From: a virus
Lineage: Duplodnaviria > Caudoviricetes
Length of the DNA stretch: 64,000 bases
Direction: 5' to 3' (one strand)
IMG/VR virus record: IMGVR_UViG_3300020419_001132
In this document: in pieces, positions 14,074-16,450 of the stretch
How positions within the stretch are numbered: the stretch's first letter is position 1
Layout of the letters: every line of letters starts with the position of its first letter
The notes under the pieces: generated by a model
Database searches by the model: none
Told to the model about the DNA's origin: nothing
What the model saw: the letters and a program-made list of their open reading frames with translations, nothing else
Position numbers and translations under genes: made by a program

Positions 14074-14505
14074 CTATTGTTTAGGTATGTTAACACTTAA
14101 TGTATTATTAACTGTTGAACCTTCCCTAGCACTAGCATCAATACCTATGCCGTAGATAGCAGTTTGTTCAGTACCGCCACCTTCTAGCTGTACAGTTCTA
14201 TTTCTAAGTTTTGTAACTTGGTAAACTGTTGAATCAGAACCTGTTGCATCAATTTTAAACTCTCCTGCAACTAATGCACCGTTAGCTTTGTTAACAAGTG
14301 TCATAAGTTCGTCGTCTGCATGTGTAGCAGGTGTAAACACGCCAGTTGCATTAGAATCTAATCTAATAACAAATTTATTATTACCAGCTTGTCTGTGAAT
14401 ATGTGCCGCTGATGTAGCTTCAGAACCACCTGTAAAAAAGTGTCTACTTACTTTAATACGTCCGGTACCAAAACCAATTTTGTCTTTGTTTATTGGTCTT
14501 CCCAT
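14074..14505 (-). CDS. Hypothetical late protein (143 aa), possibly head-associated
   Basis: Strong RBS (AAGGAG), late promoter upstream, close to gp23. Confidence 0.7.
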   Translation of the reverse strand: MGRPINKDKIGFGTGRIKVSRHFFTGGSEATSAAHIHRQAGNNKFVIRLDSNATGVFTPATHADDELMTLVNKANGALVAGEFKIDATGSDSTVYQVTKLRNRTVQLEGGGTEQTAIYGIGIDASAREGSTVNNTLSVNIPKQ

Positions 14506-14590
14506 TGTTTTCTCCTTATCTTGACGTTCTAGGTCTACGCGGCGGGTAACCGCATAACCCCTCCATTATAGAGGTTCTCCTTTAACAATT
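14506..14590 (-). promoter_or_regulatory. Structured 5' leader containing a 16-codon uORF (14516-14566)
   Basis: Stems CCUCU-AUAAU-GGAGG and AUGCGG/CCGCGU. The uORF MEGLCGYPPRRPRTSR has its own AAGGAG and its stop overlaps the main RBS. Confidence 0.45.
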
Positions 14591-14591
14591 A

Positions 14592-14599
14592 TATTTATC
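14592..14599 (-). promoter_or_regulatory. Late promoter (GATAAATA)
   Basis: Consensus match in an intergenic region. Confidence 0.6.
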
Positions 14600-14604
14600 A
14601 AATA

Positions 14605-14830
14605 AGGGAAAGTGTAAGATGCATTGGGAGGACTCGGTTATACCTCCAACCCCTCGACCGAGATGCCATTCTCAAATCCAGGGAGCCTAGTTCCGCTCGG
14701 GAGAGCGATGTGACTCAGCGTATTTCTACTACCAAACCTGGGTACCACCCCTAACTAGCCAAGTTCGACGCTCTGGTAAACGCCTCTTCCTTGCACAATG
14801 CTATTAATAAACCGTCGTCTACTAACAATA
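14605..14830 (-). ncRNA. Putative ~200-nt structured non-coding RNA of unassigned family
   Basis: GC-rich segment with no credible ORF directly downstream of a sigma70 promoter. Terminal helix GCAUUG/CAAUGC and internal helices CUAGUU/AACUAG, CUCGGU/ACCGAG and CGCUC/GAGCG. Confidence 0.65.
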
Positions 14831-14835
14831 TATAT

Positions 14836-14864
14836 ACTATAGCAAATACAATACTATTTGTCAA
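14836..14864 (-). promoter_or_regulatory. Host sigma70-type promoter TTGACA-N17-TATAGT with extended -10 (TGn)
   Basis: -35 at 14859-14864, -10 at 14836-14841, 17-nt spacer, TG at the extended position. Confidence 0.85.
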
Positions 14865-14871
14865 CCTTTTT

Positions 14872-15114
14872 TTACGGTAAAATGTAAATTATTTTATCAA
14901 CTTGTCCAAAAATATCATATTTGTCAGCAAACCATGTCATATATGCTATATCTCCAATTATATATGCTAGTCCTATAAAGAATAAAGTTTCTACACCTAT
15001 TCTTATATAATCCTTACGTGTATATATGTGTTGATAATCTTCTTCATCCAATATTGCATATGCTACAGGTTTGCCCATATGTAATCTTACTATACCTTTT
15101 TTCTTAAATGCCAT
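14872..15114 (-). CDS. Small putative membrane protein (80 aa)
   Basis: One hydrophobic segment (IGVETLFFIGLAYIIGDIAYMTWF). Confidence 0.55.
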   Translation of the reverse strand: MAFKKKGIVRLHMGKPVAYAILDEEDYQHIYTRKDYIRIGVETLFFIGLAYIIGDIAYMTWFADKYDIFGQVDKIIYILP

Positions 15115-15221
15115 TTTATTTTTTTGATTTAATACGCACTAACCAAATTGTGCTGTGCTCTGTCTTTTTTTCATAAATTGTTTCTAGTACAAAGTCTTTC
15201 TTTTTCATTTGAAATTTAGTC

Positions 15222-15250
15222 AAAAAAATAGGCCCCGTAGGGCCTATTTT
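15222..15250 (-). terminator. Rho-independent terminator after the major capsid gene
   Basis: TAGGCCC-TACG-GGGCCTA (UNCG loop) followed by a run of T. Confidence 0.9.
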
Positions 15251-15268: not shown

Positions 15269-16450
15269 TTAGCTGAAGCTTACGTTAGCATTAGTAATAT
15301 CTACTAATCCTAAGTAATCTGCCGCGTTACCAAGCGATGAAGCTGTGTTAGATAGCTCAACATATCCGTATCTAGTCATAAATGATACGACTGGCTCGAA
15401 TGATGATGGATCTAATACAACGCCACTTGACATCAATGGAATGTATGGGCAGTAAAAAGCGGCCGCATCTGATTCACTTGAACCTTTGTAACCAACTAAT
15501 ACGCCTGTACCGTCGCCTGCATATGAGTCAACATACACTCTCATTGCGTTGTTTAATGTACCAACGAATTTAGTGTTTGTTGGAGCTTCAAATGCACCTT
15601 CAGTTGTTCTTGCGAACGCTGAAGTTGTAGCACTTTGTAAGATTGTTAACGCAAATGGGCTAACAACTGCAAAGTTTCCTGCTCCTCTACGTGTACGCTG
15701 AGCAATCAAGTTTGATACTCTGTTAATTTGAACAGCGAGTGCCGCATGTTCGTCACCAACAAAAGTAGCAGTACCTGAAACTGCCGCTTGATCATAAGTT
15801 TCAGCGGCTGTACCTGCTAGTGTACGTAGGCTTGTTAGAACCTCTTGGTCAATTTCAGCAGTAATTTCTTGTGCTAAAGCCGCCATAATTTCAGCTTCAA
15901 CATCAATACCGTGCTGTGATTGTGCATCCTGAGCAGATTCAAAAGTCCATCTAGCTGATAGCTTTCTGGTTTTTGCTTCTACAGTTTGCTTGAGGATCTG
16001 AATTGACAGTCTGTTACCAGCCGCCCCTTCAAGTGCCGCAGTAGTATTCGCTTTACCTGCAGTACCGTCTCCAGAATAGGCTTGACCAATTCTGAATGGT
16101 GATAACGCTTCATCACCAGCTGTAACATCGTTAGCTGATCCTGTAGCGTTTTGAGTGTCCGCATAGCGTACTCTCAATGTGTGGATCTGACCCACTGGTC
16201 CAGTCATAGGCTGAACACCAACAATTTCATTTGCAATCACTGTTGGCATTACACGTCTGATAACTGGAAGAATAACTCTATTAAGAGTTGCAACATTACC
16301 GGCAGAAGTCGCACCAGCTGTGGCCGCCTCTTGCAAATACTGCTTAGTATTTTCAAGTGTGGTTGCCATTACGCTTTTCTTTGTGCCTTGTAGGCCTTCA
16401 AGAAGTGCTGTTTTGGTATCCTGCCAGCGACTTTCTAATAGTTCTGACAT
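15269..16450 (-). CDS. gp23: Major capsid protein (T4 gp23-like)
   Basis: Hallmark motifs GVQPMTGPVGQIHTLR, TVEAKTRKLSARWT.E.AQD, EITAEID.E, FYCPYIPL and F.P...FMTRYG. Confidence 0.97.
   Translation of the reverse strand: MSELLESRWQDTKTALLEGLQGTKKSVMATTLENTKQYLQEAATAGATSAGNVATLNRVILPVIRRVMPTVIANEIVGVQPMTGPVGQIHTLRVRYADTQNATGSANDVTAGDEALSPFRIGQAYSGDGTAGKANTTAALEGAAGNRLSIQILKQTVEAKTRKLSARWTFESAQDAQSQHGIDVEAEIMAALAQEITAEIDQEVLTSLRTLAGTAAETYDQAAVSGTATFVGDEHAALAVQINRVSNLIAQRTRRGAGNFAVVSPFALTILQSATTSAFARTTEGAFEAPTNTKFVGTLNNAMRVYVDSYAGDGTGVLVGYKGSSESDAAAFYCPYIPLMSSGVVLDPSSFEPVVSFMTRYGYVELSNTASSLGNAADYLGLVDITNANVSFS

What the first reader, a model, noticed from the sequence alone, without database searches (positions are those of the whole stretch)
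14605..14864. Stand-alone ~200-nt ncRNA with its own near-consensus host promoter beside the capsid gene
TTGACA-N17-TATAGT with an extended -10 points into a GC-rich segment with no credible ORF. Its ends pair (GCAUUG from 14796-14801 with CAAUGC from 14621-14626, plus GAGG/CCUC) and it has internal helices (14687-92/14753-58; 14633-38/14657-62; 14694-98/14703-07, with an alternative partner at 14769-74). An early-expressed, closed multi-stem RNA in a late region suggests a trans-acting RNA, such as an RNA polymerase or protein decoy, an anti-defence RNA or a ribozyme. It lacks tRNA, tmRNA and RNase P hallmark sequences. One helix (14678-83/14771-76) pairs better on the plus strand, so the strand call rests on the promoter.
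Basis: partly seen in the sequence, partly recalled or inferred. Interest (0 to 1): 0.8.

Follow-up and report, generated by a model that had tools for sequence, protein, structure and literature searches.

The report
Phage manA RNA with own promoter
The flagged stretch is a real folded RNA of an uncultured marine T4-like phage, but it belongs to the already catalogued manA family. It has its own strong host-type promoter and, unlike almost all its relatives, no terminator, so here it runs on into the leader of the next gene.

Summary
A TTGACA-N17-TGnTATAGT promoter (14864-14836, minus strand) points into a GC-rich, ORF-less, multi-helix segment.

The segment is not a new RNA. Window 14617-14827(-) matches Rfam manA RNA (RF01745) over the whole model: 54.8 bits, 0.4 below the curated cut-off, E 3e-11 for the whole window. 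Across 23 distinct related copies, 94% of cells pair and 50 of 58 pairs show compensatory changes.

All 26 copies examined carry the same sigma70-type promoter. In the 23 related loci, 21 have an intrinsic terminator before a T4-type late promoter, the freshwater-2 leader (14503-14575) and a conserved 143-aa gene. About half of the related phages lack manA at this site altogether. In cyanophage S-CREM1, manA sits wedged between two tRNAs. The family therefore looks like a free-standing RNA gene, not the gene-leader switch Rfam files it as.

This window is the exception. The terminator hairpin is deleted, and one kissing-loop base differs from all relatives.

A 2026 preprint shows that manA RNAs self-assemble into cages in vitro. 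The biological role is unknown.

This scan has already reported free-standing manA genes on other DNA.

Verdict: new member of a known kind, moderate interest.

The parts
14836..14864 (-). Sigma70-type promoter: -35 TTGACA (14864-14859), 17-nt spacer, extended -10 TG (14844-14843) plus TATAGT (14841-14836). An A-tract lies just upstream (14865-14875). The predicted start is about 14829-14831.
   Evidence: 11 of 12, TG. The pattern is unique in the 64-kb window. The same TTGAC...TGnTATAnT sits before every manA copy examined, including Mosig, P-SSM2, P-SSM4 and P-HM1.
14802..14827 (-). P0: a 5' hairpin of 11 bp with a GACG tetraloop. It is the first element of the manA model and starts at the predicted transcript 5' end.
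   Evidence: The GACG loop is also present in the group C relatives, L083 and the cyanophage copies.
14621..14801 (-). manA core, P1 to P8:
- P1 14801-14796 / 14626-14621
- P2 14793-14790 / 14763-14760 and 14784-14779 / 14772-14767
- P3 14758-14753 / 14692-14687
- P4 14751-14749 / 14742-14740
- P5 14738-14731 / 14719-14712, with a GAAA-capped tip at 14729-14720
- P6 14707-14703 / 14698-14694
- P7 14686-14649
- P8 14647-14643 / 14631-14627
   Evidence: Rfam RF01745 aligns over the full model, 54.8 bits. All 60 pairs are canonical. Covariation supports every helix.
14701..14701 (-). Private substitution in the P6 loop: the RNA reads CUCCC where all close relatives read CUACC. This breaks the middle of the 4-bp L4-L6 loop-loop complementarity.
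   Evidence: A relative's contig shows the A at this place (table 3).
14599..14620 (-). Spacer after manA that lacks the intrinsic-terminator hairpin of the relatives. Only the pyrimidine/T tract is kept.
   Evidence: No terminator is found on the minus strand. The alignment shows a gap of about 35 nt exactly where L085, L084 and L083 have the hairpin. 21 of 23 related copies have the hairpin.
14591..14598 (-). T4-type late-promoter box ATAAATAT, heading the freshwater-2 leader.
   Evidence: GATAAATAC is conserved at this place in nearly all related loci. In the window ATAAATAY is under-represented (8 found, 17 expected), and 6 of the 8 lie 18-70 nt before the starts of structural genes.
14503..14575 (-). 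freshwater-2 RNA motif (RF02980). It is the 5' UTR of the late mRNA and ends in the Shine-Dalgarno sequence and the ATG.
   Evidence: 54.2 bits against a cut-off of 49.9. It lies directly before the ATG in almost all 80 related loci.
14074..14505 (-). Conserved 143-aa all-beta phage protein of unknown function (N-terminus MGRPINK...).
   Evidence: No Pfam or PHROG match. 110 homologues found. The model has pLDDT 80 and resembles only uncharacterised phage proteins.
15225..15250 (-). Intrinsic terminator of the major capsid gene gp23 (gp23 is at 15269-16450). It closes the upstream late unit.
   Evidence: Gp23, E 1.7e-99.

Best explanation
Window 14617-14827(-) is a manA-family structured RNA (Rfam RF01745) of a large uncultured marine T4-like phage.

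The host RNA polymerase should transcribe it from a near-consensus sigma70 promoter with an extended -10, so expression is probably early or constitutive. This timing is inferred. The transcript starts at the P0 hairpin and folds into the nine-helix manA architecture, P0 to P8. The fold is shown by model match and covariation.

In relatives the unit is promoter, RNA, intrinsic terminator. It is inserted between the capsid gene's terminator and the late promoter of the next gene, and it is simply absent from about half of the related phages. It is therefore best read as an accessory, free-standing RNA gene whose product acts as an RNA, not as a switch for the neighbouring gene.

The likeliest mode of action is inferred from a 2026 cryo-EM preprint plus loop complementarity seen here. 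Copies would associate through loop-loop (kissing) pairs, L4-L6 and L7-L8 in my numbering, into pentamer-based closed particles. Their cellular target is unknown.

In this phage the terminator hairpin has been deleted. The sigma70 transcript should therefore continue through the late-promoter box into the freshwater-2 leader and the 143-aa gene. manA then forms an independently folding 5' domain of that longer early RNA, unless it is cut off by processing.
For: Identity:
- RF01745 aligns over the full model at 54.8 bits, E 2.7e-13 locally and 3.1e-11 for the whole window.
- The core is 90-99% identical to copies that pass the cut-off: 60.0, 57.9 and 55.8 bits. Pelagibacter phage Mosig scores 64 bits.

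Structure:
- On 23 distinct copies 94.4% of cells pair, and 50 of 58 pairs show changes on both sides. Slid controls pair at 32-44%, and 0 of 500 shuffles reach the observed values.
- The fold is unchanged inside the 335-nt read-through RNA.

Own promoter:
- It scores 11 of 12 plus TG and is unique in 64 kb.
- The same promoter precedes all 26 copies inspected, cyanophages included.

Free-standing in relatives:
- A terminator hairpin follows manA in 21 of 23 related copies and in P-HM1.
- The terminators differ in sequence between groups and are self-contained (by eye; no alternative-pairing search was run).
- The late-promoter box and freshwater-2 follow in all of them and are also present where manA is absent.
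- There is one manA per contig in 19 of 38 contigs.
- In S-CREM1 manA abuts tRNA-Leu and tRNA-Asn with 0-1 nt between them.

Self-association:
- manA RNAs form decamers and a 60-mer cage through kissing loops in vitro (preprint 10.64898/2026.07.01.735769).
- L4-L6 complementarity is kept through three different sequence pairs: GGUA/UACC, UAGU/ACUA and UGGU/ACCA.
- L7-L8 complementarity is kept through AGGAU/AUCCU and CUGAU/AUCAG.
Against: - No terminator follows manA in this window or in Mosig, and P-SSM2 has purL 16 nt downstream. Leader-type arrangements therefore exist and fit the published cis-regulatory reading (PMC2864571).
- The score is 0.4 bits under Rfam's cut-off.
- The window copy has a mismatch in the L4-L6 pair and only weak L7-L8 complementarity of 2-3 bp. 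Cross-controls between other loops are not much lower.
- No transcript ends could be read. The metatranscriptome data were contigs only and may include DNA.
- Oligomers are shown only in vitro, at high RNA and Mg concentrations, and for other family members.
- The fold energy is not exceptional (z -1.1).
Confidence: 0.6

Rival explanations
1. Cis-regulatory leader or riboswitch, which is the Rfam type. manA would sense a ligand or protein and control the 143-aa gene downstream (rubrerythrin in Mosig, purL in P-SSM2).
For: - The published classification as a riboswitch candidate rests on its position upstream of genes and on its complex fold (PMC2864571).
- In this window, Mosig and P-SSM2 no terminator intervenes.
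- In the read-through RNA the pyrimidine tract after manA is predicted to pair with the Shine-Dalgarno region. That could couple the two parts.
Against: - 21 of 23 related copies and P-HM1 end in a self-contained terminator. The terminators differ in sequence between groups, and by eye none overlaps P1 (no alternative-pairing search was run). Each is followed by a separate late promoter.
- The downstream gene keeps its late promoter and freshwater-2 leader in the roughly half of phages that lack manA.
- In S-CREM1 manA is flanked by tRNAs, not by a coding gene.
- Downstream genes are unrelated across lineages.
- No expression platform is visible.
Confidence: 0.2
2. Decaying or neutral copy. 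The window's manA would be a remnant that has lost its terminator and one kissing-loop base, and would no longer matter to the phage.
For: - The terminator hairpin is deleted.
- The L6 A-to-C change is unique among 19 distinct sequences.
- The score is just under Rfam's cut-off.
- The cassette is dispensable in about half of the relatives.
Against: - All 60 base pairs are canonical, and the promoter is the best match in 64 kb.
- The sequence is identical in two independently assembled viral contigs.
- At least 88% of the sampled words of a 1.3-kb stretch that includes it are held by 14 listed DNA runs (20 holder rows in all come from 14 studies). The genotype is therefore widespread and maintained.
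Confidence: 0.08
3. Capsid- or packaging-associated RNA, in the manner of phi29 pRNA. Pentamers of manA would act at five-fold vertices, at the portal, or as an assembly scaffold.
For: - The pentameric building block is made by loop-loop pairing in vitro.
- The gene lies directly behind the major capsid gene here, in the related contigs and in P-HM1.
Against: - There is no Rfam match to pRNA.
- It is established knowledge that T4-type packaging needs no RNA.
- In P-SSM2, P-SSM4, Mosig and S-CREM1 manA lies elsewhere.
- Half of the relatives lack it.
- A host-type promoter suggests early rather than late expression.
Confidence: 0.05

Closest known systems
manA RNA motif (Rfam RF01745; Weinberg et al. 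2010, PMC2864571)
   Same: It aligns to the model over its full length. All helices P0 to P8 are present, with the conserved GUG junction, the GGUGGU loop and the GNRA-capped P5. The source is a marine T4-like phage.
   Different: - The score is 0.4 bits under the curated cut-off.
- The P6 loop reads UCCC instead of UACC/ACCA.
- The copy is joined without a terminator to a second catalogued motif, freshwater-2.
- The comparative layout argues against the family's 'Cis-reg' label.
Terminator-bearing manA cassettes of related viral contigs and of Prochlorococcus phage P-HM1
   Same: They share the same promoter type and the same RNA. They occupy the same site behind gp23 and ahead of a late-promoter-driven gene.
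   Different: They end in an intrinsic terminator, which the window has lost through a deletion of about 35 nt.
manA RNA assemblies solved by cryo-EM (preprint 10.64898/2026.07.01.735769)
   Same: It is the same family. Complementary loop pairs can be read in the sequences: L4-L6 and L7-L8 here, which probably correspond to L5-L7' and L8-L9' in the preprint's numbering.
   Different: Those structures come from other family members and from in vitro conditions only. The window copy has a mismatch in one loop pair. The numbering match is my inference.
freshwater-2 RNA motif (Rfam RF02980)
   Same: It lies 42 nt downstream on the same strand and passes its cut-off.
   Different: It is a separate element with its own late promoter. 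It is present whether or not manA is present.
phi29 pRNA, and the large RNA-only multimers ROOL and GOLLD (own knowledge; preprint 10.1101/2024.12.08.627333 listed)
   Same: These are phage-associated RNAs that work, or at least assemble, as homo-oligomers held together by intermolecular loop pairing.
   Different: There is no sequence or model similarity. pRNA binds the portal of a phage with a different packaging system. ROOL and GOLLD are several times longer.
Stable RNAs C and D in the tRNA cluster of phage T4 (own knowledge)
   Same: They are small stable phage RNAs of unknown role released from a tRNA array, as manA would be in S-CREM1.
   Different: They are unrelated in sequence. The window copy is not in a tRNA array.

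Membership tests
manA RNA (RF01745) | Score at or above Rfam's gathering cut-off of 55.2 bits | tested here: inconclusive
   The score is 54.8 bits, 0.4 short, yet E is 3.1e-11 on 64 kb over both strands and all 192 model positions align. Near-identical cores in L084, L085 and L088 score 60.0, 57.9 and 55.8 bits. The cut-off is a curation line, not a biological feature.
manA RNA (RF01745) | Multi-stem architecture: a 5' hairpin, closing helix P1, P2, a three-hairpin domain enclosed by P3, then P7 and P8, supported by covariation | tested here: met
   All 60 pairs are canonical in the window. Across 23 distinct copies 94.4% of cells pair and 50 of 58 pairs show compensatory changes, and the controls are far lower.
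manA RNA (RF01745) | Conserved unpaired signatures: GUG after P1, the GGUGGU loop of P4, a GNRA cap on P5, the ACC-containing loop of P6 and the 11-nt loop of P8 | tested here: met
   All are present. The one exception is that the P6 loop reads CUCCC where relatives read CUACC.
manA RNA (RF01745) | Occurrence in marine T4-like phages or marine metagenomes | tested here: met
   gp23, the gp21 protease and late-promoter boxes are present. The runs that hold the sequence are marine metagenomes. The nearest isolate copy is in Pelagibacter phage Mosig.
manA RNA (RF01745) | Homo-oligomerisation through kissing loops (2026 preprint) | not testable with these tools
   Only loop complementarity can be read. 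L4-L6 is 4 bp in 15 of 19 distinct relatives and 3 bp in three more, but GG/CC only in the window. L7-L8 is 2-3 bp in the window's group.
Riboswitch / cis-regulatory leader | An expression platform (terminator or SD-masking helix) that competes with the aptamer fold, and consistent linkage to the regulated gene | tested here: not met
   Terminators in relatives are self-contained and vary in sequence. By eye they do not overlap P1; no alternative-pairing search was run. The downstream gene has its own late promoter and leader and occurs without manA in about half of the loci. S-CREM1 has tRNAs on both sides. Ligand binding is not testable here.
freshwater-2 RNA (RF02980), the adjacent element | Score above the gathering cut-off and a position directly before a start codon | tested here: met
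   54.2 bits against 49.9, ending at the ATG of the 143-aa gene. The element is conserved in the related loci.
phi29-type pRNA | Similarity to the pRNA model, and a phi29-type packaging motor | tested here: not met
   No pRNA hit appears in the permissive Rfam scans. The head genes are T4-type.

The most novel reading that the evidence does not exclude
During infection, manA RNAs made from the strong host-type promoter would assemble in the cell into pentamer-based RNA particles, as they do in vitro. These particles would act in trans. They might, for example, enclose or titrate a host factor, or assist assembly at five-fold capsid sites, given the gene's recurrent place right behind gp23. That would make manA the first natural RNA cage with a biological role. 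The terminator-less window copy would then tether such a particle to an mRNA.
Probability: 0.07. Interest if true: 0.85.

Novelty: new member of a known kind. Interest (0 to 1): 0.4.

Why it matters
manA is an orphan RNA. It was described in 2010 as a riboswitch candidate, and a 2026 preprint shows it building RNA-only cages in vitro, but no biological role is known.

The layout seen here and in relatives points to an independent RNA product rather than a gene switch:
- a conserved host-type promoter;
- in most relatives, a terminator;
- optional presence at the site;
- a tRNA-flanked copy in S-CREM1.

That shifts the question from 'which ligand?' to 'what does the free RNA, or its assembly, do in an infected cell?'. 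It also points to culturable systems in which this can be tested: P-HM1 or P-HM2 on Prochlorococcus, and Mosig on Pelagibacter.

The window adds a natural terminator-less variant with a changed kissing loop, which is useful as a comparison. For annotation, this copy falls just under Rfam's cut-off, and deposited phage genomes (P-HM1, P-SSM4) carry ORF calls over the RNA that are probably spurious.

Tried and rejected
- Own assembly: it is not held. The nearest viral record, G001, gave no candidate for RF01745.
- blastn against isolate phages found only Mosig for the window's copy and only S-CREM1 itself for the cyanophage copy. Covariance models were needed.
- MAFFT plus RNAalifold on 13 copies recovered only 19 pairs, because the variable helices misalign. 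It was replaced by a model-guided alignment, which leans towards the given structure, so I relied on the slid controls.
- A second, broader model could not be calibrated within the time limit.
- Metatranscriptomes were available only as assembled contigs.
  - They hold the 143-aa gene at 100% identity, plus pieces of manA and freshwater-2 from relatives.
  - They show no ends and no strand, and DNA carry-over cannot be excluded.
  - One contig runs across a relative's promoter.
  - I draw nothing from them on expression, and uncovered parts prove nothing.
- The fold of the 143-aa protein gave no PDB match (best E 0.05, Tudor/MBT-like barrels, TM 0.25) and only uncharacterised phage proteins in BFVD.
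- tRNA-like, tmRNA, RNase P, 6S, pRNA and ribozyme readings: there are no hits.
- Literature searches for 'freshwater-2' and for manA in pelagimyophage papers gave nothing relevant.

Full report
WHAT IS THERE

On the minus strand a sigma70-type promoter lies 8 nt after the stop of an 80-aa ORF. It reads TTGACA, a 17-nt spacer ending in TG, then TATAGT, at 14864-14836. It lies about 400 nt downstream of the major capsid gene gp23 (15269-16450; Pfam Gp23 E 1.7e-99) and of gp23's own terminator (15225-15250). The stricter pattern TTGAC-N14-16-TGNTATANT occurs only here in the 64-kb window, against 0.11 expected.

The promoter points into a segment of 51% GC flanked by 27-38% GC. That segment holds no ORF above 37 aa. 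ARAGORN finds no tRNA or tmRNA in the window.

IDENTITY

A permissive Rfam scan aligns 14617-14827(-) to the whole manA RNA model (RF01745, positions 1-192). The score is 54.8 bits, with E 2.7e-13 locally and 3.1e-11 for the whole window on both strands. Rfam's gathering score is 55.2, which is why the default scan missed it.

The core is 90-99% identical to copies in related viral contigs that do pass the cut-off, at 60.0, 57.9 and 55.8 bits. It is 75% identical to a 64-bit copy in Pelagibacter phage Mosig.

Directly downstream, 14503-14575(-) is a freshwater-2 RNA (RF02980, 54.2 bits against a cut-off of 49.9). It ends in the Shine-Dalgarno sequence and the ATG of a 143-aa ORF (14074-14505).

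STRUCTURE

I mapped the Rfam and minimum-free-energy structure onto the window. This gives 60 pairs, all canonical. The elements are a P0 hairpin with a GACG loop, closing helix P1, P2, a P3-enclosed domain with P4, P5 (GAAA-capped) and P6, then P7 and P8.

Three others are alternatives that relatives do not keep.

I built a covariance model from six close copies and used it to align 24 copies, 23 of them distinct. On that alignment:
- 94.4% of cells form standard pairs;
- 50 of 58 pairs carry changes on both sides;
- no shuffle out of 500 reaches the observed values;
- partners slid by 1-3 columns pair at only 32-44%.

The alignment is fitted to the model, so it leans towards the structure, but the gap to the slid controls is large. 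Many G-U pairs and the energies fix the strand: -72.6 kcal/mol on the minus strand against -51.9 on the plus strand. Energy alone would not have flagged the region (z -1.1).

CONTEXT IN RELATIVES

The 143-aa protein has no Pfam or PHROG family but has 110 homologues. 80 viral-contig loci were fetched. Their layout is as follows.
- **Leader.** Almost all loci have freshwater-2 directly before the ATG. It is preceded by a conserved GATAAATAC box.
- **Late-promoter box.** In the window ATAAATAY is under-represented (8 found, 17 expected). Six of the eight copies sit 18-70 nt before the starts of structural genes, as expected of T4-type late promoters.
- **manA occurrence.** manA was found once per contig in 19 of 38 contigs. 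In the fetched loci it lies just upstream of this leader, except in Mosig. With filters off, two more copies appeared. About half of the 49 distinct loci have none. In some of these the gp23 terminator is followed at once by the late box (L023).
- **Promoter.** Every copy has the same promoter, GGTTGAC ... TGyTATAtT, ending 6-12 nt before P0.
- **Terminator.** In 21 of 23 distinct copies a strong, self-contained intrinsic terminator follows 7-70 nt after P1. Its sequence differs between groups, and by eye it does not overlap P1; no alternative-pairing search was run. The late box and freshwater-2 follow it.

Only the window's sequence and Mosig lack the terminator hairpin. The window's sequence is identical in two contigs. 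An alignment shows a gap of about 35 nt in the window exactly at the hairpin, with the T-rich tail retained.

INDEPENDENT LINEAGES

I confirmed by Rfam the cyanophage copies listed in a published table (PMC9964418, supplement). They score 97-186 bits.
- **P-HM1:** gp23, then a terminator with an embedded TTGACA and TGCTATAAT, then manA, a terminator, a late-type box and the next gene. This is the same cassette at the same site as here.
- **P-SSM4:** the same promoter, then a weak hairpin, then an ATAAATA box.
- **P-SSM2:** the same promoter, no terminator, and the purL ATG 16 nt downstream.
- **S-CREM1:** manA fills the space between tRNA-Leu and tRNA-Asn with 0-1 nt to spare, inside a tRNA array. 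By established tRNA processing it would be cut out as a discrete RNA; this is an inference.

In P-HM1 and P-SSM4 hypothetical ORFs are annotated over the RNA.

HOW IT PROBABLY WORKS

- **Shown:** a conserved fold and a conserved host-type promoter.
- **Shown for most relatives:** a terminator-bounded unit that is optional at its site and separate from the neighbour's own late promoter and leader.
- **Inferred:** the product acts as a free RNA, made early by unmodified host polymerase.

A July 2026 preprint (10.64898/2026.07.01.735769) reports that manA RNAs form decamers, octamers and a 60-subunit icosahedral cage in vitro. These are built from pentamers held by kissing loops.

In the sequences here two loop pairs are complementary, and the complementarity is kept through different sequences:
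- P4 loop with P6 loop: GGUA/UACC, UAGU/ACUA and UGGU/ACCA;
- P7 loop with P8 loop: AGGAU/AUCCU and CUGAU/AUCAG, but only GGU/ACC in the window's group.

This fits the preprint's interfaces if P0 is counted as its P1. However, cross-controls between other loops are only moderately lower, so I treat this evidence as suggestive. What such particles would do in a cell is unknown.

WHAT IS PARTICULAR TO THIS WINDOW

1. There is no terminator. The sigma70 transcript should run through the late box into freshwater-2 and the 143-aa gene. A fold of that 335-nt RNA keeps the manA domain intact. It also pairs the pyrimidine tract after manA with the Shine-Dalgarno region. This is a prediction only. It could keep early read-through RNA untranslated.
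2. A private A-to-C change at 14701 breaks the middle of the L4-L6 pair. It is the only such case among 19 distinct sequences.
3. The P0 hairpin with its GACG loop is of the type seen in more distant groups, not in the window's nearest relatives.

The genotype is not an assembly accident. It is identical in two viral contigs, and at least 88% of the sampled words of a 1.3-kb stretch that includes it are held by 14 listed DNA runs (20 holder rows in all come from 14 studies).

RIVALS

- **Riboswitch or leader.** The published reading (PMC2864571) fits the three terminator-less arrangements. It does not fit the terminator-bearing majority, the optional presence, or the tRNA-flanked copy. No expression platform is visible. 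Confidence 0.2.
- **Decaying copy.** This is possible but is opposed by the perfect helices and the wide occurrence. Confidence 0.08.
- **pRNA-like capsid role.** This rests only on the pentamer geometry and the place behind gp23. Confidence 0.05.

NOVELTY AND SCORE

The RNA family is catalogued, so this is a new member of a known kind. The argument that phage manA is a free-standing gene is not in the papers I could read, which call it cis-regulatory. However, this scan has already reached that argument on at least eight other stretches of DNA. I retrieved those notes after forming my own reading and tested the claim independently here.

Interest is moderate. It sharpens a testable question about an orphan, cage-forming RNA, and it supplies a natural terminator-less, loop-variant copy.

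Noticed in passing
window 14503-14598 (-); loci L006-L081 just before position 2501: The 'freshwater-2' motif (RF02980) occurs here in marine phage contigs. It is always headed by a T4-type late box (GATAAATAC) and always forms the whole 5' UTR of one protein family, the 143-aa family with N-terminus MGRPINK. It looks like the late-mRNA leader of a phage gene rather than a bacterial freshwater element.
   Followed up: partly
L004 and L005, about 1870-2500 (same places as L088 and L084): In two close relatives a second gene that starts MGRPINKRFFG... sits between manA and the 143-aa gene. It has its own late box and a freshwater-2-like leader. It looks like a paralogue that shares the N-terminus, and there the 143-aa gene itself has lost the leader.
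   Followed up: no
window 11828, 14591, 24274, 26378 (-); 32736, 38452 (+): ATAAATAY is half as frequent as expected in the window. Six of its eight copies lie 18-70 nt before the starts of large structural ORFs, so they are probable late promoters. The two remaining copies (49199, 50948) lie antisense inside the 5260-aa ORF.
   Followed up: partly
window 14599-14616 with 14508-14525 (-): In the predicted read-through RNA the pyrimidine tract left over from the lost terminator pairs with the Shine-Dalgarno region of the 143-aa gene (MFE only). The late transcript would lack this tract.
   Followed up: no
window 15116-15223 (-): A 35-aa ORF right after the gp23 terminator ends ...TIWLVRIKSKK. 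Relatives L084 and L088 have ...TVWLVKIKKK at the same place before the manA promoter, so it may be a real small gene. The 80-aa hydrophobic ORF at 14872-15114 is absent from those relatives.
   Followed up: partly
L104 1006-1182 (P-HM1 PHM1_121); L103 1085-1258 (P-SSM4 PSSM4_169.1): Deposited cyanophage genomes annotate hypothetical proteins over their manA RNAs (186 and 184 bits). These ORF calls are probably spurious.
   Followed up: partly
L101 1246-2145 (Synechococcus phage S-CREM1): wcaG, manA and abiF RNAs are all interleaved with tRNA genes in one array. ARAGORN also finds a tRNA-His(atg) at 1469-1540 that the record does not annotate.
   Followed up: no
window 14074-14505 (-): The model of the 143-aa protein (pLDDT 80, all-beta) resembles only uncharacterised phage proteins. 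Two of them are from the jumbo Agrobacterium phage Atu_ph07. There is no solved structure for the fold.
   Followed up: partly
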